Shown: piece after piece, positions 44,242 to 61,999 of the stretch
Layout: each line of letters begins with the position of its first letter
Position numbering within the stretch: the first letter of the stretch is position 1
Source of the DNA: a virus
IMG/VR virus record: IMGVR_UViG_3300024518_005299
Span: 1 to 64,000 of that record
Strand: one strand, 5' to 3'
Length of the DNA stretch: 64,000 bases
Notes under the pieces: model-generated
Seen by the model: only the letters and a program-made list of their open reading frames with translations
The model's database searches: none
What the model was told of the DNA's origin: nothing
Position numbers and translations under genes: made by a program

Positions 44242-44877
44242 ATGAGAAAAACACTTCATCAAAAGGATTTAGATTTTTTTCAAACACCTAATGAACTTAA
44301 TTGTTATTGGGCGGGTTTCATAGCGGCTGATGGAAATATCCAGCCTTCTAAAAATACTGTATGCGTTGTGCTTGCAGCAAAAGACAAATGTCATTTGGAA
44401 AAATTAGCAAAAGATATTCAGTATACTGGATCTGTTAAAGACACTATTACTAAACTAAATAATAAATCTTATCCGGGTGCCCGTTTGAGTATTTGTGGCG
44501 CATCTAATATCATCCACGATCTAGAATTGAATTTCAACATCATAGCCAATAAGTCTTTGACCTTACAATCACCCCAACATCTATCTAGAAGATTATCGTT
44601 GGCATTTATTATTGGATATTTTGATGGTGATGGCTCTACTGGAGTATACAAAAGTACAGGTCGTAGAATGGTGTTTTTAGGCACTTACGATATGCTTAGC
44701 TGGATTAAAGTAATATTTGATGAAGAGTTTCCACAACATGTTTATAAAAATCTGCCCACTGTACGTAAACATAAGGGCATATATGAATATGGCGTTTGTG
44801 GTAAAAGGGCAGAGTATATCATGTCCAAATTGCGAGAAATTGATGTGCCTCGTCTGGGAAGAAAGTGGGCTAGATGA
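44242..44877 (+). CDS. LAGLIDADG homing endonuclease
   Basis: YWAGFIAADGNI and FIIGYFDGDGS. Confidence 0.9.
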   Translation: MRKTLHQKDLDFFQTPNELNCYWAGFIAADGNIQPSKNTVCVVLAAKDKCHLEKLAKDIQYTGSVKDTITKLNNKSYPGARLSICGASNIIHDLELNFNIIANKSLTLQSPQHLSRRLSLAFIIGYFDGDGSTGVYKSTGRRMVFLGTYDMLSWIKVIFDEEFPQHVYKNLPTVRKHKGIYEYGVCGKRAEYIMSKLREIDVPRLGRKWAR

Positions 44878-54790: not shown

Positions 54791-56273
54791 AAATGTTGCC
54801 GCCGAATTTAACTTACTGGCTGGTTTGTGCCGGAACCCAGAGATATTTTTTAATGTCCAACAGCACCTTTCTGCAGATGACTTTACGGAGAAGGTCAATC
54901 AAAAATTCTTCATAGTTTTACAACGGTTACTAATGAACTCCACGGGTGAGTTGGTAGTGACCCAACCTGGATTGTTAGCAGAGGCGGCGTCTTTAGGGTT
55001 TAAGGATTTCTATAAGATTTGCAGAGACGGTGAATTGATCGAGGCATGCCTAGATCATCAATCAACTCCAGCCATCACAGGGCGCGCCTTCTTACACGTT
55101 AAGCGCGAGTCTGTTAAAAGAGGCTATCAATCATATTTCAAACAAAAGCTTAAATATATTGAGGATACGACTGATGATACCAACAGCATCATCGACACTG
55201 TAGACTCTGGGCTAATTGATCTATCTAATAAATTACAAGGCGTAGTAGATGACGAGATCATCCATTTGCCTTCACGCGCTATTGAGATCATTGACGACCT
55301 AGCGGATCATCCGGGCGAGCTTGGTGTTGATATCGGCTTTCCGATTTGGCAACGCGCCACTGGTGGATTGCGCAATGGTACTATTACTTTTCTAGCTGCC
55401 AACGCTAAATCTGGTAAGAGCCAGATTGGGGTTCGTGCCGCAGTTGAGTTATCGCGCTATATGCCGGTGCTTTATTGTGACAGTGAATTGAACGAGATCG
55501 CGCAGGGTGTGCGAGCGTTTGGTATGCATGCTGAAGTGAATTATGAGGTCTTAGAGACTGGCTATTGGAAAGCGGATCATGATAAGATTATCCGCGATGG
55601 CTATAATAAAACCTTTGCTTTACAATGTGGTATCGATCGTCAGACGATCGAGGATGTAGACATTCGAGCAGAGTTTGCTACACGTAAATTGTATTATAAG
55701 CAAATGACTGGCATGACCGCGCGTGAGATACTACCCTTTTTACGTCGTTGGGTCATGCAGCATGTTGGATTGGATAATGATACACGACAAGCTCGTTGTC
55801 TAATTGTTTGGGATTATATTAAGTTGGCTCGAATTGATGAAGTCAAAGCGATGGGGGTAGGTGCTCATGATGTGTTGGGCGACACCTGTATGGCTTTACA
55901 TGATTTTGCTGAAGAGTTTAATCTACCCATCTTGGCGTTTGGACAAACCAATCGTGCTATTGACAAAGACTTTGCGATGATTGCCGGCGCGAAGAAGATT
56001 GTGGAGCTAGTAGATTCTATTAGTTTGTTTCATAAGAAAGACGCTCATGACTTAGTCACATCACCACAAGGAACACACGAGATACACATCTTAGGATCTC
56101 GATACGGTAAGGGCGTGAGCACCCATATTAATGTAGAGGCCGATCTAGGGATCGGGAAGTTCCAAGAGCTGGGCGTGGCTACGCTTGTACAATCAACACC
56201 CGTAACCCCGGCTGTTCCTGTAGGAGGGGCGGTAAAAAATCCGACCACTAGTAAATCTAAAACGAAACCATGA
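54783..56273 (+). CDS. dnaB: replicative DnaB-like helicase
   Basis: GGLRNGTITFLAANAKSGKS, CDSEL, VWDYIKL, FGQTNR, RYG. Confidence 0.88.
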   Translation: MARNVAAEFNLLAGLCRNPEIFFNVQQHLSADDFTEKVNQKFFIVLQRLLMNSTGELVVTQPGLLAEAASLGFKDFYKICRDGELIEACLDHQSTPAITGRAFLHVKRESVKRGYQSYFKQKLKYIEDTTDDTNSIIDTVDSGLIDLSNKLQGVVDDEIIHLPSRAIEIIDDLADHPGELGVDIGFPIWQRATGGLRNGTITFLAANAKSGKSQIGVRAAVELSRYMPVLYCDSELNEIAQGVRAFGMHAEVNYEVLETGYWKADHDKIIRDGYNKTFALQCGIDRQTIEDVDIRAEFATRKLYYKQMTGMTAREILPFLRRWVMQHVGLDNDTRQARCLIVWDYIKLARIDEVKAMGVGAHDVLGDTCMALHDFAEEFNLPILAFGQTNRAIDKDFAMIAGAKKIVELVDSISLFHKKDAHDLVTSPQGTHEIHILGSRYGKGVSTHINVEADLGIGKFQELGVATLVQSTPVTPAVPVGGAVKNPTTSKSKTKP

Positions 56274-57370
56274 CAATGACAAGAGAGCCATCAAAAGATA
56301 GGTTGACTAAAGAAAAGATTGAGGGCGTGCGTAAATTGGCACATAAAAATATGCGCCTGATTATGAAAAAGCTAAACTTTAGTGGGGATGATTTTGGTAG
56401 TCGTCTTGTAGGATGCTGTCCTATTCCTCACAATAATGGTCAAACGCCTAATGATAATCGCCAAGCATTTAGTTGGGATTTTGACCGACAGATGTGGCAG
56501 TGCTTTACCAATCAGTGCCATCAGATTCACGGGGCGGATATTTTTGCGCTTATTCAATGCGCGAAAGACTGCGGGTTCATTCAGGCCCTGCAGTGGATTC
56601 TAGATGCTATAGAAAAAGACATTGGTGATATTAAAGAACTTGATAATGAAGAGTCTCAACGATTAGAGCAGGTCATTCGTAAACGATCAGAACTTGTTAA
56701 ACATAAGCGTATGGAAGAGGCGTTGATGACTCATCTACAGCCTAGTGCTTATTTTGCTGATCGAGGATTTTCAAAAGAAGTTATTGCGGAATTTAAATGT
56801 GGAGGCGAATGGCACAAATATCAAACCTATGGTGAAGATAGAGTAGTCGTTCCAATTTATGATCCGCTTGATGGATATCTTGTCGCTTTTACATGTCGTA
56901 TATTGGACGACAATAAGATTAATAAATGGCGACCTAAATGGTGTCATACTCTTAATTTCGCAGAGATACGCAAGAGGTCTCAAGATCGCGCTGACGAAGA
57001 AAAATTTCATGCCTCGTCTGTGCTCTATAATCTTTATCGTGCTTCTCAGCATATGGGGGCGTCTAAAACTATCTTTGTAGCTGAAGGCCCCGGGGACGTT
57101 ATGAAGATGTGGGATGCTGGAATTAAGAATGCCGTAGCTGTTCTAGGCACCGGGTTTTCCAAACATCATAGAACACTCTTACATAAGATTGGTTGTCAGC
57201 AAGTAGTCTGCGTTTTTGATAATGACTTAGCTGGACAAAAAGCTAGCAATGTAGTGAAAAAAATGTGTGATAATTATTTTGAATTTAAAAACGTAACTTT
57301 ACGAGAAGGAACAGACCCTGGAAGTCTTCTTCCGATGCAGTTACGTATGGTTTTGAGGGAATATTTATAA
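56270..57370 (+). CDS. dnaG: DnaG-like primase
   Basis: N-terminal Cys/His Zn site; TOPRIM VAEGPGD...FDNDLAG. Confidence 0.88.
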   Translation: MTMTREPSKDRLTKEKIEGVRKLAHKNMRLIMKKLNFSGDDFGSRLVGCCPIPHNNGQTPNDNRQAFSWDFDRQMWQCFTNQCHQIHGADIFALIQCAKDCGFIQALQWILDAIEKDIGDIKELDNEESQRLEQVIRKRSELVKHKRMEEALMTHLQPSAYFADRGFSKEVIAEFKCGGEWHKYQTYGEDRVVVPIYDPLDGYLVAFTCRILDDNKINKWRPKWCHTLNFAEIRKRSQDRADEEKFHASSVLYNLYRASQHMGASKTIFVAEGPGDVMKMWDAGIKNAVAVLGTGFSKHHRTLLHKIGCQQVVCVFDNDLAGQKASNVVKKMCDNYFEFKNVTLREGTDPGSLLPMQLRMVLREYL

Positions 57371-57903
57371 TGAGCGTTTATGAGAAGATGAGGGTGTATT
57401 TTTCCTCACCCTATGAGCATGATCGTGCTGAAACGTCGTGGAAGTCAACAATAGAAAACTTTATGATAAGGAAGTTAGATTGGCGTATTCAAACTATCGA
57501 CCCTTGTTCAGACTTATGTGATGAAGCTAATCTTATTGATGAGATGAAGGCTAACGAAGACTGGTTAGGAGTATATTCGTTTTGTGCAAATATTGTGGAG
57601 AGCGATCTTGCAATGTTGAATCGTTGTGAGGGTATGATCGCATACCTACCCTGTAACGCAAGAACTTTTGGCACTACCCATGAGATTATTTATGCTTTAG
57701 CAAATAATATTCCAGTAGTGATGGTTATGCCAGAAGGGATTGACAAAGTGCCGCATTGGTTATGGGGAATTTTAGGTCCGAATCGCATCTTTGACAATCT
57801 AGAAGAAGCGGCAACGACTTTAGTAAAGAGAATGCAAGTAGCAAGAGGAGAACAAGCAAATGACACAGTTCATTACCCTAAGCGGTCGAGAATTGACTTA
57901 TGA
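57370..57903 (+). CDS. nucleoside 2-deoxyribosyltransferase/N-glycosidase-like protein
   Basis: VYFSSP...DLAMLNRCEGMIAYL...GTTHEIIYA...IPV. Confidence 0.75.
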   Translation: MSVYEKMRVYFSSPYEHDRAETSWKSTIENFMIRKLDWRIQTIDPCSDLCDEANLIDEMKANEDWLGVYSFCANIVESDLAMLNRCEGMIAYLPCNARTFGTTHEIIYALANNIPVVMVMPEGIDKVPHWLWGILGPNRIFDNLEEAATTLVKRMQVARGEQANDTVHYPKRSRIDL

Positions 57904-57916
57904 TAGATGTCAGTAA
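57860..57916 (+). pseudogene. relic 5' end of the dNMP kinase gene
   Basis: GAGGAG RBS + MTQFITLSGRELT versus kinase MAKFITLSGKKQT. Confidence 0.75.
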
Positions 57917-58547
57917 ACAAAGATTCAAATATCAACATACCATCCCTATACCGGATCTTGATAGTGAAGCATTTTGTTACTGGTTAGGGTTTATCTTAGC
58001 TGATGGATGTATTACTGATACTGACAGTGGTTCTGATCGTTTTATTATAGGCCTTAAGCAAGATGATAAAGATCATTTAGAAAAGTTACGCAAGTGGTTA
58101 AGATCTAATCATCCAATACGTTATATAAGAAAAACCAAGGCTTATGATTTTAGGATACGATCTCAAGGATTGTGCAATATGCTAGGTGAGTTTGGCGTCA
58201 CCCCTAGAAAGTCACTTACTGCTTGTGTGGACCCTAGATTAAAAAATAATCGCCATTTTTGGCGTGGAATGATTGATGGAGATGGCACTATATTTATTGA
58301 TACTCGTGATAAATTATTTTGTTTTGGCTTGCTCGGTACTGAAAATGTATGTATAGATTTTTGGAATTTTTGTTATGACATTGATTCTACTTTTAATAAG
58401 GTTTCAATTTGCAAACCCCCATGGAATGGATATTCTGTAAGATGTTCTGGAAGAAAAGCTAAAAATATTGCTAGAAAGCTTTACGGAGATTGTAATATTT
58501 ATCTGGATAGAAAGAAAAAATTAGTAGAGGAAAATATTGATGGCTAA
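57900..58547 (+). CDS. LAGLIDADG homing endonuclease
   Basis: YWLGFILADGCI and FWRGMIDGDGT. Confidence 0.9.
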   Translation: MIDVSKQRFKYQHTIPIPDLDSEAFCYWLGFILADGCITDTDSGSDRFIIGLKQDDKDHLEKLRKWLRSNHPIRYIRKTKAYDFRIRSQGLCNMLGEFGVTPRKSLTACVDPRLKNNRHFWRGMIDGDGTIFIDTRDKLFCFGLLGTENVCIDFWNFCYDIDSTFNKVSICKPPWNGYSVRCSGRKAKNIARKLYGDCNIYLDRKKKLVEENIDG

Positions 58548-59289
58548 ATTTATTACATTAAGTGGAAAAAAACAGACTGGCAAGGATAGCGCCGCAAAGA
58601 TTATTCGTCAGTACTTAGTAAGTGAGAGCTTTAGTTTTTGTTTAGATAATGAAGGCGTAGTGCGCCTACAAAGCTCCGTAGGTATTGGTCCTTTAGGTGT
58701 GGAGGGGATTAATCGTGTGCACGTTGTGCATTTTGCAGACGCTCTCAAAAAGGCATGCAATATCATTTTTGGTATTCCATTAGAAGACATGGAGACTGAA
58801 GAGGGAAAACAGAAGGTAACACATGTAAAATGGCCATGCAATATGGCATCATATGATATTGATCAGGAGCCGACATGGGTCCCCTCTAGTCGGTATATTG
58901 ATTATTGTCATAAGAATAATCGTGAAATTAATGGTGGCGCTAGCCACATGACCGTTCGCGAGATTCTTCAATTTGTAGGAACTGATCTTCTGAGGAATCA
59001 ACTAGATCCAGATATCTGGGTAGAGTCAGTATTTCGTCAACCATGGAAAGAAGACGATGTTGTGATCATTGCAGATGCACGCTTCCCCAATGAAGCAGAT
59101 ATCGCCCTTCAACATGGGTTGTTGATCAATATTGAACGTGAAACTAATTTGGCGAGTGATGGACATAGGTCCGAAACAGCCTTGAATGATTATGCTGATT
59201 ATCATTATAGTGTGGATAATAATAGCTCTGTGGATGATTTCGTTATGCATTTAAATAATGTGATGTCAGAACAGAATATCTTAACATGA
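58540..59289 (+). CDS. deoxynucleoside monophosphate kinase
   Basis: P-loop SGKKQTGKDS, HFADALK, REILQFVGT, IADARFPNE, HRSE. Confidence 0.9.
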   Translation: MAKFITLSGKKQTGKDSAAKIIRQYLVSESFSFCLDNEGVVRLQSSVGIGPLGVEGINRVHVVHFADALKKACNIIFGIPLEDMETEEGKQKVTHVKWPCNMASYDIDQEPTWVPSSRYIDYCHKNNREINGGASHMTVREILQFVGTDLLRNQLDPDIWVESVFRQPWKEDDVVIIADARFPNEADIALQHGLLINIERETNLASDGHRSETALNDYADYHYSVDNNSSVDDFVMHLNNVMSEQNILT

Positions 59290-60296
59290 AAATACCATAC
59301 GTTTCACCTTCACGCTTAAAGACTGCTGATGCTTGTGAATTTAAATACTTTCTTCATTATATATGGGGGTGGAGCGATGAGCTATTTACTTATACGTTCT
59401 GCAGCGAGTTTGGTAGTGCAGTCCATTACACGCTTGAGGAGTATGCGGAGTCTAAAGGTACGGCTGATTACAAAGCTATCTATCATAAGCATGTAATGGA
59501 CCTAAAGCCTTTTATGAAAGATATGAATAACGCGCCGTCGAAAGCCCGTGGTTCGTTTTTTGTTGAAAAAGATTGTGAGTTTTGTCCATTTTTTGGTGTA
59601 GAAGACGGGACTTGTGGCGTAATGCCTTTTGTTGTTGAGGACATCGTCACCCTATATAATGTTGATGAGTTTGAGGGCTGTCCCAAGAAACTATATAACG
59701 AGGGGCTAGGCATGGTTGAAGATGCCATCGTTCGTTATGGTGAATATTTTGACACAGGTGTTAAAAGCAAGGATAATCCTAACGGTAAGGTAATCGGTAT
59801 TGAGGCTCCTACTAGAAAAGAGGCTGATCCAGAAGGTCCACATATCACGTGGGGTGTTGATAAGGATGATGAGCCCATCAATATGAATGGGTTTATTGAT
59901 CTAGTTGTTGAGTATGATAAGGAAACACTATTAATTATTGATTACAAAACAGGATATTCTGTTCCTGAGTATGAGAAGTTTCTTCAAGACCTTCAGCCTA
60001 GAATGTATTCCTATGCGGCAAAGCGCATGTATCCTCAATATAAATATCACTGGGTGCAGTTTGATTACTTTAGAAGCCTAGTACCTTTAGAGCATGCATT
60101 TACAGATGAAGATGATGAGCTGACGCGGCAATACGTGGTTGAGCTTTATCATAAAATTAAAGATGCGCGCTCAATCAAGCGTCGTGGAGAAGACTGGTAT
60201 TGTAAACATCTATGTAATCGTCCATTCTGTGATCAAAAATGGAAAGAATTATTAAACGGCTTAGACGGCTCTAATCCCAACCCTCCCAAAAGATGA
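59286..60296 (+). CDS. PD-(D/E)XK exonuclease (AddB/Cas4-like, Fe-S staple)
   Basis: SPSRL...C, FGSAVH, GFIDLV...IIDYKTG, Q..MY, C-terminal CxxxCxxxxC. Confidence 0.85.
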   Translation: MKIPYVSPSRLKTADACEFKYFLHYIWGWSDELFTYTFCSEFGSAVHYTLEEYAESKGTADYKAIYHKHVMDLKPFMKDMNNAPSKARGSFFVEKDCEFCPFFGVEDGTCGVMPFVVEDIVTLYNVDEFEGCPKKLYNEGLGMVEDAIVRYGEYFDTGVKSKDNPNGKVIGIEAPTRKEADPEGPHITWGVDKDDEPINMNGFIDLVVEYDKETLLIIDYKTGYSVPEYEKFLQDLQPRMYSYAAKRMYPQYKYHWVQFDYFRSLVPLEHAFTDEDDELTRQYVVELYHKIKDARSIKRRGEDWYCKHLCNRPFCDQKWKELLNGLDGSNPNPPKR

Positions 60297-60670
60297 TGGA
60301 AGATCCACGCTGTAAATATTTATGGGGTCAGCCTAAAGATATGACAGTTGATCAAAAATTTAGGTTGTTGTTACGTTTATTGCGTAAATACTTCCCACCA
60401 GATTTCCCTGTGCGTGTTCGTCGTGTGACAAAAGACCTTTTGGGTCCTGACGCTCCTCATGGTATAGTTTGGATGGTAAACGAGGGTAAACCCAATTCGT
60501 ATTATAAAATCCTTATTAATAAAAATTATCCATGGAATTCACAATTTGATACAGTCATGCATGAATGGGCGCATACGCTCACCTGGCATATAGTAGGTAA
60601 TGGTAAAGATCATGGCGACCCCTTTCATCGTTGTTTCGGTAGTTTGTATCGAGCTTTTGTAGAAGATTAA
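60293..60670 (+). CDS. HEXXH zinc metalloprotease (SprT-like)
   Basis: TVMHEWAH...HGDPF. Confidence 0.7.
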   Translation: MMEDPRCKYLWGQPKDMTVDQKFRLLLRLLRKYFPPDFPVRVRRVTKDLLGPDAPHGIVWMVNEGKPNSYYKILINKNYPWNSQFDTVMHEWAHTLTWHIVGNGKDHGDPFHRCFGSLYRAFVED

Positions 60671-61381: not shown

Positions 61382-61999
61382 GTGATGGTATATAATTATA
61401 ATAAACATTACTTTGATAATATTGATTCGGCTGAAAAGGCTTATTGGTTGGGCTTTCTTTGGGCTGACGGATGTCTTTTTAATAGCAAGACTCATCCTAA
61501 ACATGTTATTTTTTCACTTCATAAAAAAGATAGATTGTCTATTAAGACGCTTTTAAATGCGCTCGAATCTAATCATCCAATTCGTACTCAGAAAAATAAA
61601 TATGATCGTGTAGAATTTTACGGTGCAGATTTTTATGATTCTCTTTTTCAAAAAGGATTTGAACCCCGTAAGTCTAAGTTAAATAGGATACCAAAATTTC
61701 CCTCAAGATATGATTTTGATTTTATAAGAGGCGTTTTTGATGGTGATGGATGTGTTTATTATCATCAAGCTCGCAATCAAACCTGTGTTGAAATAGCTGG
61801 TAATTTTAAAATAGTTGATTATATTTTAAACGTTATGCAGTTCGGCACATGTTCTCGTATGTCTTTGAAAGGTACTTGGCGTTGGAGGGCTTCTGGTAAT
61901 CAGGTAGCTAAAAGATTCGCACAAAACATTTATTATGATAATAATATAATATGTATGAAAAGAAAACGTGAAAAATTTAAGAGGTTTATTAATGTCTGA
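61382..61999 (+). CDS. LAGLIDADG homing endonuclease
   Basis: YWLGFLWADGCL and FIRGVFDGDGC. Confidence 0.9.
   Translation: MMVYNYNKHYFDNIDSAEKAYWLGFLWADGCLFNSKTHPKHVIFSLHKKDRLSIKTLLNALESNHPIRTQKNKYDRVEFYGADFYDSLFQKGFEPRKSKLNRIPKFPSRYDFDFIRGVFDGDGCVYYHQARNQTCVEIAGNFKIVDYILNVMQFGTCSRMSLKGTWRWRASGNQVAKRFAQNIYYDNNIICMKRKREKFKRFINV

What the first reader, a model, noticed from the sequence alone, without database searches (positions are those of the whole stretch)
57845..58578. Synonymously recoded duplicate of the dNMP kinase 5' end flanks a LAGLIDADG gene
Upstream of the HEG, GAGGAG + ATG 57860 encodes MTQFITLSGRELT and then runs to a stop at 57916; downstream, the intact kinase starts MAKFITLSGKKQTGKDS. 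FITLSG is identical in protein but five of six codons differ (TTC/TTT, ACC/ACA, CTA/TTA, AGC/AGT, GGT/GGA), the downstream copy being AT-richer like the HEG. The break is just before the GK of the P-loop. This is the expected footprint of a nuclease that entered a conserved motif and brought a cleavage-resistant replacement N-terminus, as known for atp6/atp9 in fungal mitochondria.
Basis: partly seen in the sequence, partly recalled or inferred. Interest (0 to 1): 0.8.

Follow-up and report, generated by a model that had tools for sequence, protein, structure and literature searches.

The report
Homing endonuclease carrying a replacement gene start
A selfish nuclease gene has cut into the start of a phage nucleotide-kinase gene and kept the kinase working by bringing a new ribosome site, start codon and first codons, a trick known from fungal mitochondria (at gene ends) that I did not find described for phage gene starts.

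Summary
The window is part of a 131.7-kb uncultured phage. An 18-codon stub, MTQFITLSGR..., with its own GAGGAG ribosome site, lies at 57860-57916. Next comes an intact double-motif LAGLIDADG endonuclease gene (57900-58547), then a complete T4-gp1-type dNMP kinase (58540-59289) starting MAKFITLSGKKQTGKD.

Comparative data support the interpretation:
- All 27 endonuclease-free relatives start the kinase where the stub starts; the nearest free relative (L015) also uses the stub's codons.
- A second phage lineage (L018) has the same stub-endonuclease-kinase layout. Its near-identical empty counterpart (L021) places the break at kinase nucleotide 32-33 and shows a co-converted foreign tract of at least 130 nt, possibly about 340 nt.
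- Two relatives (L014, L053) have lost the endonuclease by internal deletion but keep both kinase starts.

Two corrections:
- "Five of six codons differ" is ordinary divergence between alleles of this family, not evidence of selected recoding.
- MAK replaces MTQ because the endonuclease's stop codon lies inside kinase codons 2-3.

Cleavage at this site and immunity of the new copy are inferred, not shown.

This is a new variant of a known kind: fungal mitochondrial mobile endonuclease ORFs duplicate gene 3' ends, whereas this one duplicates a phage gene's 5' end.

The parts
57370..57903 (+). Upstream gene, weakly similar to nucleoside 2-deoxyribosyltransferase (here called NDT). Its 3' end overlaps the old kinase start. 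Its stop, TGA 57901-57903, overlaps the endonuclease ATG as ATGA.
   Evidence: The Pfam PF05014 hit is below the curated cut-off (22.8 bits vs 28.8). Orthologues occupy the same position in 13 of the compared loci. In 9 endonuclease-free relatives its stop lies at kinase nt 42-44, the same offset as in the window's stub.
57845..57850 (+). Original ribosome-binding site of the kinase (GAGGAG), now serving the stub mini-ORF.
   Evidence: Sequence. The same AGAGGAGA lies before the kinase ATG in endonuclease-free L015, L016, L031, L039 and L042.
57860..57916 (+). Remnant of the resident kinase 5' end. Nucleotides 57860-57889 (MTQFITLSGR) are homologous to the family's start. The ORF then runs through 10 nt of junction filler (57890-57899) and the first 14 nt of the endonuclease gene to the TAA at 57914-57916.
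   Evidence: The first 20 nt are identical to L015. All four remnants (window, L014, L018, L053) carry ACC CTR at nt 16-21, as do most free alleles.
57900..58547 (+). Free-standing double-motif LAGLIDADG homing endonuclease gene (215 aa). The motifs are WLGFILADG (57981-58007) and WRGMIDGDG (58260-58286).
   Evidence: Pfam PF14528 and PF00961 hits are above their cut-offs. The AlphaFold model has pLDDT 94.2, and the top Foldseek hits are I-Tsp061I, I-AniI, PI-PfuI and I-SceI. GC is 33.4% against about 40% in the flanks. It is 72% identical to the L018 orthologue, with pN 0.18 and pS 0.73.
58527..58531 (+). Replacement ribosome-binding site (GAGGA) for the kinase, encoded by the endonuclease's last codons (V-E-E-N), 8 nt before the ATG.
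   Evidence: Sequence. The same element is kept in L018 and in both deletion scars, L014 and L053. Glu210 is invariant in 7 orthologues.
58540..58572 (+). Replacement 5' end of the kinase (ATG plus the first 10 codons), the part duplicated by the insertion. The endonuclease stop TAA (58545-58547) lies inside kinase codons 2-3.
58540..59289 (+). Intact dNMP kinase of the T4 gp1 type. The P-loop G9-D16 lies at 58564-58587. A mosaic variable middle lies at about 58837-58950.
   Evidence: Pfam PF21448, E = 5e-16. The family profile hits PDB 1DEK at 3.4e-10, with the P-loop aligned. The 71 columns invariant in the 16-sequence alignment, which includes the window kinase, include G9, G14, K15 and D16.

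Best explanation
**What it is.** A LAGLIDADG homing endonuclease gene sits inside the 5' end of the phage dNMP kinase gene as a self-contained cassette. The cassette holds a few filler bases, the endonuclease ORF, and at its 3' end a ribosome-binding site, an ATG and the first codons of a kinase allele. The minimal duplicated tract is about 32 nt; in L018 at least 130 nt came in.

**How it works.**
- Inferred: the enzyme cuts cassette-free kinase genes at about nt 32-35, in the DNA coding the start of the P-loop.
- Shown for L018 vs L021, inferred for the window: repair copies the cassette from a donor phage. The recipient's own nt 1-32 pair with the donor's stub on the left. The kinase body pairs on the right.
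- Shown: the kinase stays intact because it is now read from the imported start.
- Shown: the decapitated original start survives as a short leader ORF.
- Shown as anatomy, inferred as function: the endonuclease ATG sits in an ATGA overlap with the stop of the upstream gene (window) or of the leader ORF itself (L018). The nuclease is therefore probably translated by coupling to the kinase's old initiation region.
- Inferred, weakly supported: the imported start differs enough from the resident one to avoid re-cutting and to avoid repeat-mediated loss.
- Shown in L014 and L053: after fixation the endonuclease can be deleted while both starts remain.
For: 1. **Empty sites.** 27 endonuclease-free loci start the kinase exactly where the stub starts, directly after the NDT-like gene, the primase gene or a HAD-like gene. 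L015 matches 83 of 100 nt around the stub start.
2. **Independent second case.** L018 reads primase, then stub MTQFITLAGQK, then an endonuclease 72% identical to the window's, then kinase MVKFITLAGKK. L021 is 95-100% identical in the primase gene and in the kinase 3' part. It lacks the endonuclease, and its first 32 kinase nt are identical to the L018 stub. Beyond the endonuclease the first ~130 nt of the kinase are only ~45% identical, and identity returns to ~95% from L018 nt 1738.
3. **Same insertion point with different upstream genes.** The break falls at kinase nt ~30 (window), 32-33 (L018) and 35 (L053). The endonuclease start lies 40, 41 and 37 nt after the old ATG.
4. **Deletion scars.** L014 is the closest relative found (downstream genes 87-95% identical in protein). 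It equals the window minus about 57892-58525 and keeps both starts and the GAGGAAAATAT tail. L053 keeps 7 N-terminal and about 13 C-terminal endonuclease codons between two copies of MTRFITLAGKK.
5. **Patchy distribution.** On a tree of the kinase C-terminal half, window+L014 group at 99/99 support, L018 is sister to free L021 at 95/81, and L053 sits apart. At least two gains are needed.
6. **The endonuclease looks active.** Both motifs and their acidic residues are intact, there is strong purifying selection, the fold model is confident, and the composition is foreign.
7. **A discrete orthologue group.** Seven sequences are at least 59% identical and the next hit is 38%. Three of them have longest-contig lengths equal to those of kinase hits.
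8. **Expression signals are conserved.** The kinase ribosome site lies in the endonuclease tail, and the endonuclease stop lies in kinase codons 2-3: GCT AAA, GTT AAG, ACT AGA. ATGA-type coupling is described for T4 mobE (PMC2988022).
Against: - No cleavage data exist. The cut site is inferred only from where homology breaks.
- The filler between break and endonuclease ATG is not conserved among the three lineages, and the break position varies by a few nucleotides. Single origin with drift and repeated imprecise insertion cannot be separated.
- No true empty counterpart of the window's own lineage was found. The nearest free relative, L015, has only 59% kinase identity, so the length of the imported tract in the window is unknown.
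- The window's new copy shares the rare Ser8 with its own stub. That fits a closely related donor, but also some exchange between the two copies.
- The number of synonymous differences is no greater than between random alleles. The only consistent marker of endonuclease-linked copies, ACR TTR at nt 16-21, also occurs in 4 of 24 distinct free alleles (Fisher p = 0.012, on three non-independent lineages).
Confidence: 0.8

Rival explanations
1. Passive passenger. The endonuclease is an ordinary free-standing gene next to the kinase and does not cut the kinase start. The stub is debris from illegitimate recombination that swapped in a foreign endonuclease-plus-kinase segment.
For: - Phage genomes are mosaic. 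The kinase's variable middle has been exchanged independently of the endonuclease (window vs L014, L018 vs L021).
- The junction filler is not conserved.
- The imported tract in L018 may reach about 340 nt.
Against: - The break falls within a 6-nt interval of the same gene in three lineages whose upstream neighbours differ: the NDT-like gene in the window and L053, primase in L018.
- No other kind of junction was seen in 31 loci.
- The cassette ends are built for expression of both genes.
- The orthologue group appears tied to this gene.
Confidence: 0.1
2. A local tandem duplication of the kinase start came first, and the endonuclease later landed between the two copies.
For: - In the window and L014 both copies encode the rare Ser8.
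- In L053 both copies encode the identical peptide MTRFITLAGKK.
Against: - In L018 the copy after the endonuclease belongs to a different allele class from the resident one. The first 130 nt are ~45% identical to L021 and the N-terminal protein region differs.
- The two copies differ as much as unrelated alleles do, by 8-11 of 30 nt.
- No locus shows a duplication without endonuclease sequence between the copies.
Confidence: 0.05
3. The two kinase parts are joined at the RNA or protein level (group I intron, intein or ribosomal bypass), so the stub is a real first exon.
For: - Endonuclease genes inside coding genes are usually carried by introns or inteins.
- In L014 the stub ends GGT TGA, 42 nt before a GGA codon. 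This superficially recalls the T4 gene 60 bypass.
Against: - No intron family matched at E <= 1.
- The endonuclease is not in frame with either kinase part.
- Joining the two parts would duplicate FITLSG.
- The downstream gene has its own ribosome site and ATG, conserved in all four loci.
- The scars leave far too little DNA between the copies for a ribozyme core.
- GGT and GGA are not matching take-off and landing codons.
Confidence: 0.02

Closest known systems
Mobile endonuclease ORFs (mORFs) of fungal mitochondria that create gene hybrids: Allomyces macrogynus atp6; Glomus atp6, atp9, cox2, nad3; Rhizopus atp9; Mortierella cox2 (PMC3630166)
   Same: - A LAGLIDADG (or GIY-YIG) ORF is inserted inside a conserved protein gene without an intron.
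- It travels with a foreign copy of the displaced gene terminus, which becomes the expressed one.
- The native terminus stays next to it as an unused duplicate, and that duplicate is the copy most like close relatives.
   Different: - Here the 5' end is duplicated, not the 3' end, so the cassette must supply a ribosome site and start codon rather than a stop.
- The order is native stub, endonuclease, new terminus: the mirror image of the mitochondrial order.
- The endonuclease is not fused in frame to the host gene. It appears to be translationally coupled to the leftover start.
- The host is a phage, not an organelle.
T4 mobA plus gene 60 bypass cassette, and mobE-split nrdA of phage Aeh1 (PMC2988022; bioRxiv 10.1101/2022.08.31.505936)
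   Same: - A phage free-standing endonuclease lies inside an essential conserved gene and carries accessory sequence that keeps the gene working.
- The cassette is patchily distributed.
- The endonuclease is progressively lost while the accessory sequence is retained.
- The start is coupled to the upstream stop.
   Different: Those elements split the host protein into two polypeptides, with added tails and, for mobA, a ribosomal hop. They use HNH nucleases. Here the host protein stays in one piece and is re-started from an imported 5' end.
Intronless homing by T4 seg and mob genes (SegF, SegG, SegB, MobE)
   Same: - A free-standing endonuclease.
- Co-conversion of flanking markers into the recipient.
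- Presence/absence polymorphism among related phages.
   Different: Those genes sit between genes and cut a neighbouring gene at a distance. No part of the target gene is duplicated.

Membership tests
LAGLIDADG homing endonuclease (monomeric, double-motif) | Two LAGLIDADG motifs, each ending in a conserved acidic residue | tested here: met
   The motifs are WLGFILADG (residues 28-36, with D35) and WRGMIDGDG (residues 121-129, with D128). D35, D126 and D128 are invariant in 45 homologues.
LAGLIDADG homing endonuclease (monomeric, double-motif) | Profile match above the curated threshold | tested here: met
   PF14528 scores 27.8 bits (cut-off 22.5) and PF00961 scores 23.9 bits (cut-off 23.1).
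LAGLIDADG homing endonuclease (monomeric, double-motif) | Pseudo-symmetric two-domain alpha-beta-beta-alpha-beta-beta-alpha fold | tested here: met
   The model has pLDDT 94.2 and pTM 0.90. The top Foldseek hits are I-Tsp061I (E = 1e-9), I-AniI, PI-PfuI, I-LtrWI and I-SceI, all with probability 1.00. A sequence-only PDB search found nothing.
LAGLIDADG homing endonuclease (monomeric, double-motif) | Site-specific double-strand cleavage of a long target | not testable with these tools
   This needs a cleavage assay.
Homing element (mobile by cleavage and repair) | Presence/absence polymorphism at one precise site among close relatives | tested here: met
   L018 vs L021 are 95-100% identical in the flanks. 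Overall there are 27 empty sites, 2 occupied and 2 scars.
Homing element (mobile by cleavage and repair) | Co-conversion of flanking host sequence with the element | tested here: met
   In L018 a foreign tract extends at least 130 nt, possibly about 340 nt, into the kinase.
Homing element (mobile by cleavage and repair) | The occupied allele is immune to its own nuclease | tested here: inconclusive
   The insertion separates the left half of the inferred site from the right half. The new copy restores a similar sequence, differing consistently only at nt 18-19 and in AAA AAA at nt 28-33. Neither state is unique to linked copies.
Fungal mitochondrial mORF gene hybrid | A duplicated gene terminus flanks the endonuclease ORF, and the native copy is closer to relatives than the inserted copy | tested here: met
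   The L018 stub matches L021 at 32 of 32 nt. The window's stub context matches L015 at 83 of 100 nt, against 46 of 100 for the new copy's context.
Fungal mitochondrial mORF gene hybrid | The duplication is of the carboxy-terminal part, with the ORF downstream of the inserted terminus | tested here: not met
   Here the amino-terminal part is duplicated, and the ORF lies upstream of the inserted terminus.
Group I intron-borne endonuclease gene | A ribozyme core flanks the ORF, and the exons join to give one reading frame | tested here: not met
   No Rfam match at E <= 1 over 56500-60500. The 10 nt before the ORF leave no room for a ribozyme core, and the ORF overlaps the kinase ATG by 8 nt. Joining the parts would duplicate FITLSG.
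Intein | In-frame insertion with splicing junction residues | tested here: not met
   The endonuclease ORF is in a different frame from the stub, is bounded by stops and has its own start.
T4 gp1-type dNMP kinase (Pfam DNMK, PF21448) | Profile match, N-terminal P-loop GxxxxGKD, and homology to the solved T4 enzyme | tested here: met
   PF21448 E = 5e-16. PDB 1DEK E = 3.4e-10, with kfitlaGkkqvGkd aligned to KLIFLSGVKRSGKD.

The most novel reading that the evidence does not exclude
This is an active member of a so-far undescribed class of phage mobile element, a start-replacing homing cassette.

- The endonuclease targets the first ~35 nt of an essential gene and carries that gene's ribosome site, start codon and first codons at its own 3' end.
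- It uses the decapitated original start twice: as the left homology arm that makes it portable between genomes with different upstream genes, and as a leader ORF that drives its own translation by coupling.
- Divergence between the two starts would then protect against both re-cleavage and repeat-mediated excision.
- The same layout may exist unnoticed at other phage genes. The second endonuclease gene in this window overlaps the dnaE start in the same way.
Probability: 0.55. Interest if true: 0.72.

Novelty: new variant of a known kind. Interest (0 to 1): 0.62.

Why it matters
Endonuclease genes that land inside coding sequence have four known ways to spare the host gene: introns, inteins, splitting the protein into reassembling pieces, and (in fungal mitochondria) bringing a spare 3' end. 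This locus shows a fifth arrangement in a phage: bringing a spare 5' end together with its translation signals.

- **Annotation.** It explains short orphan ORFs that copy the start of the next-but-one gene, and the tandem "double start" scars left where the endonuclease has gone.
- **Biochemistry.** It points to a compact (215 aa) monomeric LAGLIDADG enzyme whose natural target can be guessed to within a few bases.
- **Evolution.** One small comparative set holds a natural series of empty, occupied and decayed sites for studying the life cycle of such elements.
- **Site choice.** In relatives that carry the NDT-like gene, the inferred site lies where the upstream gene's 3' end overlaps the kinase P-loop codons. 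That may be why it is conserved enough to be a homing site.

Tried and rejected
- **Nucleotide search of the phage collection** with 57300-59400: no match.
- **Single-protein scan of viral contigs:** only relatives at 34% identity or less.
The contigs of the closest kinase hits (P0001, P0004, P0016) and of endonuclease orthologues P0123-P0127 could not be read. Their adjacency to kinase genes rests only on equal contig lengths.
- **Scans of viral contigs with endonuclease alignments:** the first found nothing. The second found only paralogues at 38% identity or less.
- **Test of those 23 paralogue loci for duplicated gene ends:** one recurring weak match (SLNSQLFRA / SSNSRIFYA). It lies inside a complete 310-320 aa upstream gene and was rejected as a remnant.
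- **DNA pattern for the cassette's right junction:** recovered only the L053 contig.
- **The other two LAGLIDADG genes of the window:** no significant duplicated termini.
- **Sequence-only PDB search with the endonuclease:** no hit; the fold search was needed.
- **Promoter/terminator scan:** no enrichment over shuffles.
- **Gene 60-like bypass in the L014 scar:** considered and rejected, because the codons do not match and a complete downstream start is present.
- **Literature:** seven full-text searches found no phage case of a duplicated 5' gene end at an endonuclease gene. This covers only the held library.
Full report
**Setting.** The window is the first 64 kb of a 131,680-bp IMG/VR virus record, estimated 83% complete. 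Around the finding the + strand carries, in order:
- a DnaB-like helicase;
- a primase (56270-57370);
- a gene weakly similar to nucleoside 2-deoxyribosyltransferase, called NDT here (57370-57903; the Pfam hit is below its cut-off);
- a LAGLIDADG ORF (57900-58547);
- a dNMP kinase (58540-59289);
- a PD-(D/E)XK nuclease (59286-60296).

The kinase is of the T4 gp1 type. PF21448 matches at 5e-16. A family profile hits PDB 1DEK at 3.4e-10, and the N-terminal P-loop aligns as kfitlaGkkqvGkd against KLIFLSGVKRSGKD.

**The observation.**
- GAGGAG lies at 57845-57850. ATG 57860 opens MTQFITLSGRELTYDRCQ, stopping at 57914-57916.
- The kinase proper opens MAKFITLSGKKQTGKDS at 58540.
- FITLSG is identical in protein, and five of its six codons differ.
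- The match scores 41 (ungapped BLOSUM62), reached by none of 100 shuffles of the upstream 230 nt.

**Relatives.** A search of 5.8 billion proteins found kinase relatives from 99% to under 50% identity. Many of the best hits start MTQFITL[AS]G[KRQ]KQxGKD, the same opening as the stub. The three closest start MAKFITLSGKKQ. Scans of metagenome and viral contigs with the family alignment fetched 31 loci with readable 5' context. They fall into four groups.

- **Empty sites: 27 loci.**
  - The kinase ATG follows directly on the NDT-like gene, on primase, or on a HAD-like hydrolase gene, with no second FITL-coding stretch anywhere in the locus.
  - The nearest free relative, L015, matches the window at 83 of 100 nt around the stub's ATG, including the ribosome site and the first 20 coding nt. 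The context of the window's downstream copy matches it at 46 of 100.
  - In nine NDT-bearing empty loci the NDT stop is a TAA formed inside the P-loop codons GGT AAR, at kinase nt 42-44. In the window the NDT stop lies at exactly that offset from the stub ATG, but is a TGA that overlaps the endonuclease ATG.
- **A second occupied site: L018.**
  - The order is primase, stub MTQFITLAGQK followed by a stop, an endonuclease 72% identical to the window's, then kinase MVKFITLAGKK.
  - Its empty counterpart L021 is 95-100% identical through the primase gene. Its first 32 kinase nt are identical to the L018 stub, after which the two diverge completely.
  - Downstream of the endonuclease the first ~130 nt of the two kinases are only ~45% identical. 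The conserved core is ~88-93% identical, the variable middle differs, and identity returns to ~95% from L018 nt 1738.
  - Foreign kinase sequence therefore entered together with the endonuclease.
- **Scar 1: L014, the closest relative found.** Protein identity to the window is 89% for the NDT-like gene, 87% for the PD-(D/E)XK nuclease and 95% for the next ORF. The locus reads stub MTQFITLSG-stop, then 15 nt, 13 of them aligning to the endonuclease's 3' tail (AGAGGAAAATATC), then MAKFITLSGKKQTGKD. Aligned to the window, it lacks about 57892-58525, with a junction of 1-3 nt microhomology.
- **Scar 2: L053.** It reads stub MTRFITLAGKK, then the first 7 and last ~13 codons of the endonuclease, then kinase MTRFITLAGKKQSGKD.

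**Junction anatomy.**
- Homology to the empty allele ends at kinase nt ~30 (window), 32-33 (L018) and 35 (L053). The endonuclease start follows 40, 41 and 37 nt after the old ATG. The few bases between are not conserved.
- The break is thus constant to within a few bases, even though the upstream gene is the NDT-like gene in two lineages and primase in the third. This points to the kinase start as the target. It lies just before codons G14-K15.
- At the left end the endonuclease ATG forms an ATGA overlap with the stop of the NDT-like gene (window) or of the stub mini-ORF itself (L018), and no strong ribosome site precedes it. Such overlaps are read as translational coupling for T4 mobE (PMC2988022).
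- At the right end the endonuclease's last codons (V-E-E-N-I-x-G) contain GAGGA 8 nt before the kinase ATG. Its stop codon lies inside kinase codons 2-3 (GCT AAA, GTT AAG, ACT AGA). This explains why linked kinases begin MAK, MVK or MTR rather than MTQ. Both scars retain this tail, as expected if the kinase depends on it.

**The endonuclease.**
- It has both LAGLIDADG motifs with their acidic residues, invariant across 45 homologues.
- It passes two Pfam thresholds.
- The model is confident (pLDDT 94.2), and its best structural matches are monomeric LAGLIDADG enzymes: I-Tsp061I, I-AniI, PI-PfuI and I-SceI.
- GC is 33.4% and GC3 22.8%, against about 40% and 33-37% in neighbouring genes.
- Between the window and L018, pN is 0.18 and pS 0.73, so the protein is under purifying selection.
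- Orthologues form a discrete group: seven sequences at 59% identity or more, with the next hit at 38%. Three have longest-contig lengths equal to those of kinase hits.

**Distribution.** On a maximum-likelihood tree of the kinase C-terminal half, the part outside the imported tract:
- the window and L014 pair at 99/99 support;
- L018 is sister to empty L021 (95/81), nested among empty loci;
- L053 sits elsewhere.

At least two gains of the cassette are needed.

- Five of six synonymous codon differences is not a sign of designed recoding. Random pairs of empty alleles differ at a mean of 3.8 of these six codons, and a third of pairs differ at five or more. The stub and new copy differ by 8-11 of 30 nt, against a family mean of 8.2. 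The difference shows that the two copies come from different allele lineages, which itself argues against a recent local duplication.
- Only ACR TTR at nt 16-21 is found in all four linked copies and none of the four stubs. It also occurs in 4 of 24 distinct empty alleles (Fisher p = 0.012, on three non-independent lineages).
- Immunity of the new copy is therefore plausible but unproven.

**Mechanism proposed.**
- The mobile unit is filler, endonuclease ORF, ribosome site, ATG and the first ~32 nt of a kinase allele.
- After a cut near nt 32-35 of an empty kinase gene, the recipient's nt 1-32 can pair with the donor's stub, and the kinase body with the donor's functional copy. Gap repair then copies everything between.
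- This would make the stub the left homology arm and explain spread between genomes with different upstream genes.
- Shown: the layout, the empty sites, the imported tract in L018, the scars and the expression signals.
- Inferred: the cut site, the repair path, coupling and immunity.

**Alternatives.**
- *Intron, intein or bypass.* There is no Rfam intron. The frames do not fit. The downstream gene is complete. The scars leave too little DNA between the copies (15 nt from stub stop to ATG in L014; under 70 nt from break to ATG in L053).
- *Passive passenger plus illegitimate recombination.* This does not explain the constant break point in different contexts.
- *Prior tandem duplication.* This is contradicted by L018 and by the divergence of the copies. 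However, the Ser8 shared by the window's two copies and the identical peptides in L053 keep a small probability alive.

**Comparison with known systems.**
- The closest known systems are the mobile endonuclease ORFs of fungal mitochondria. They insert into atp6, atp9, cox2 or nad3 with a foreign carboxy-terminal segment and leave the native C-terminus as an unused duplicate (PMC3630166).
- The present case is the mirror image at a 5' end, in a phage, and adds the need to import translation signals.
- Phage literature describes endonuclease genes within coding regions that split the protein (mobE in Aeh1 nrdA, mobA in T4 gene 39/60) or add a bypass (PMC2988022; bioRxiv 10.1101/2022.08.31.505936). 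Seven full-text searches found no duplicated gene start.
- I class it as a new variant of a known kind.

**Limits.**
- Only two intact and two decayed cassettes were readable.
- No empty allele of the window's own lineage was found.
- All functional claims about cutting, immunity and coupling need bench tests.

Noticed in passing
window 61382-61999 and 61992 onward: A second LAGLIDADG gene, 31% identical to the first. It ends FINV-stop, overlapping the ATG of the next gene (a PHP-domain DnaE-like polymerase; ATGTCTGA at 61992-61999). An AAGAGG ribosome site lies inside its last codons. This is the same 3' architecture as the kinase cassette. No significant remnant of the polymerase start was found upstream (score 28, reached by 5 of 100 shuffles).
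   Followed up: partly
window 44242-44877: A third LAGLIDADG gene (211 aa, 33% identical over its N-terminal part) sits between the 1503-aa fibre-like gene and a 748-aa structural gene. Its start abuts the upstream stop, and its stop overlaps the downstream ATG. No duplicated termini were found.
   Followed up: partly
window 58837-58950 (kinase residues ~100-137): The kinase has a hypervariable middle that is exchanged independently of the rest. The window and L014 are 80-90% identical in DNA on both sides but unalignable here. The window's version resembles P0003 and P0007, and L014's resembles P0004 and P0006. L018 and L021 differ in the same segment.
   Followed up: partly
L015, L016, L017, L020, L022, L031, L037, L039 (kinase nt 42-44); window 57901-57903: In endonuclease-free relatives the upstream NDT-like gene overlaps the kinase by 44 nt. 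Its TAA stop is formed inside the P-loop codons GGT AAR, so the inferred homing site lies in doubly coding DNA.
   Followed up: yes
L035:1656-2285: A GIY-YIG-type endonuclease ORF (KNGVYKIRNLVNGKLYIGSA...) lies between the kinase and the PD-(D/E)XK gene in one relative. This neighbourhood attracts several endonuclease families.
   Followed up: no
L023, L024, L026-L030, L041, L054-L060 (between primase and kinase): A HAD-like hydrolase gene of about 240 aa (WVIFDMDNTLIDTE...) takes the place of the NDT-like gene. Its stop overlaps the kinase start as ATGGTTAA, the same overlap that the endonuclease tail makes.
   Followed up: no
L033:143-200: This endonuclease-free allele follows directly on primase and has the full codon pattern of endonuclease-linked starts (GCT AAA TTT ATT ACG TTG GCC GGG AAA AAA). 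It is either a naturally immune allele, a possible donor type, or a site cleaned of both endonuclease and stub.
   Followed up: no
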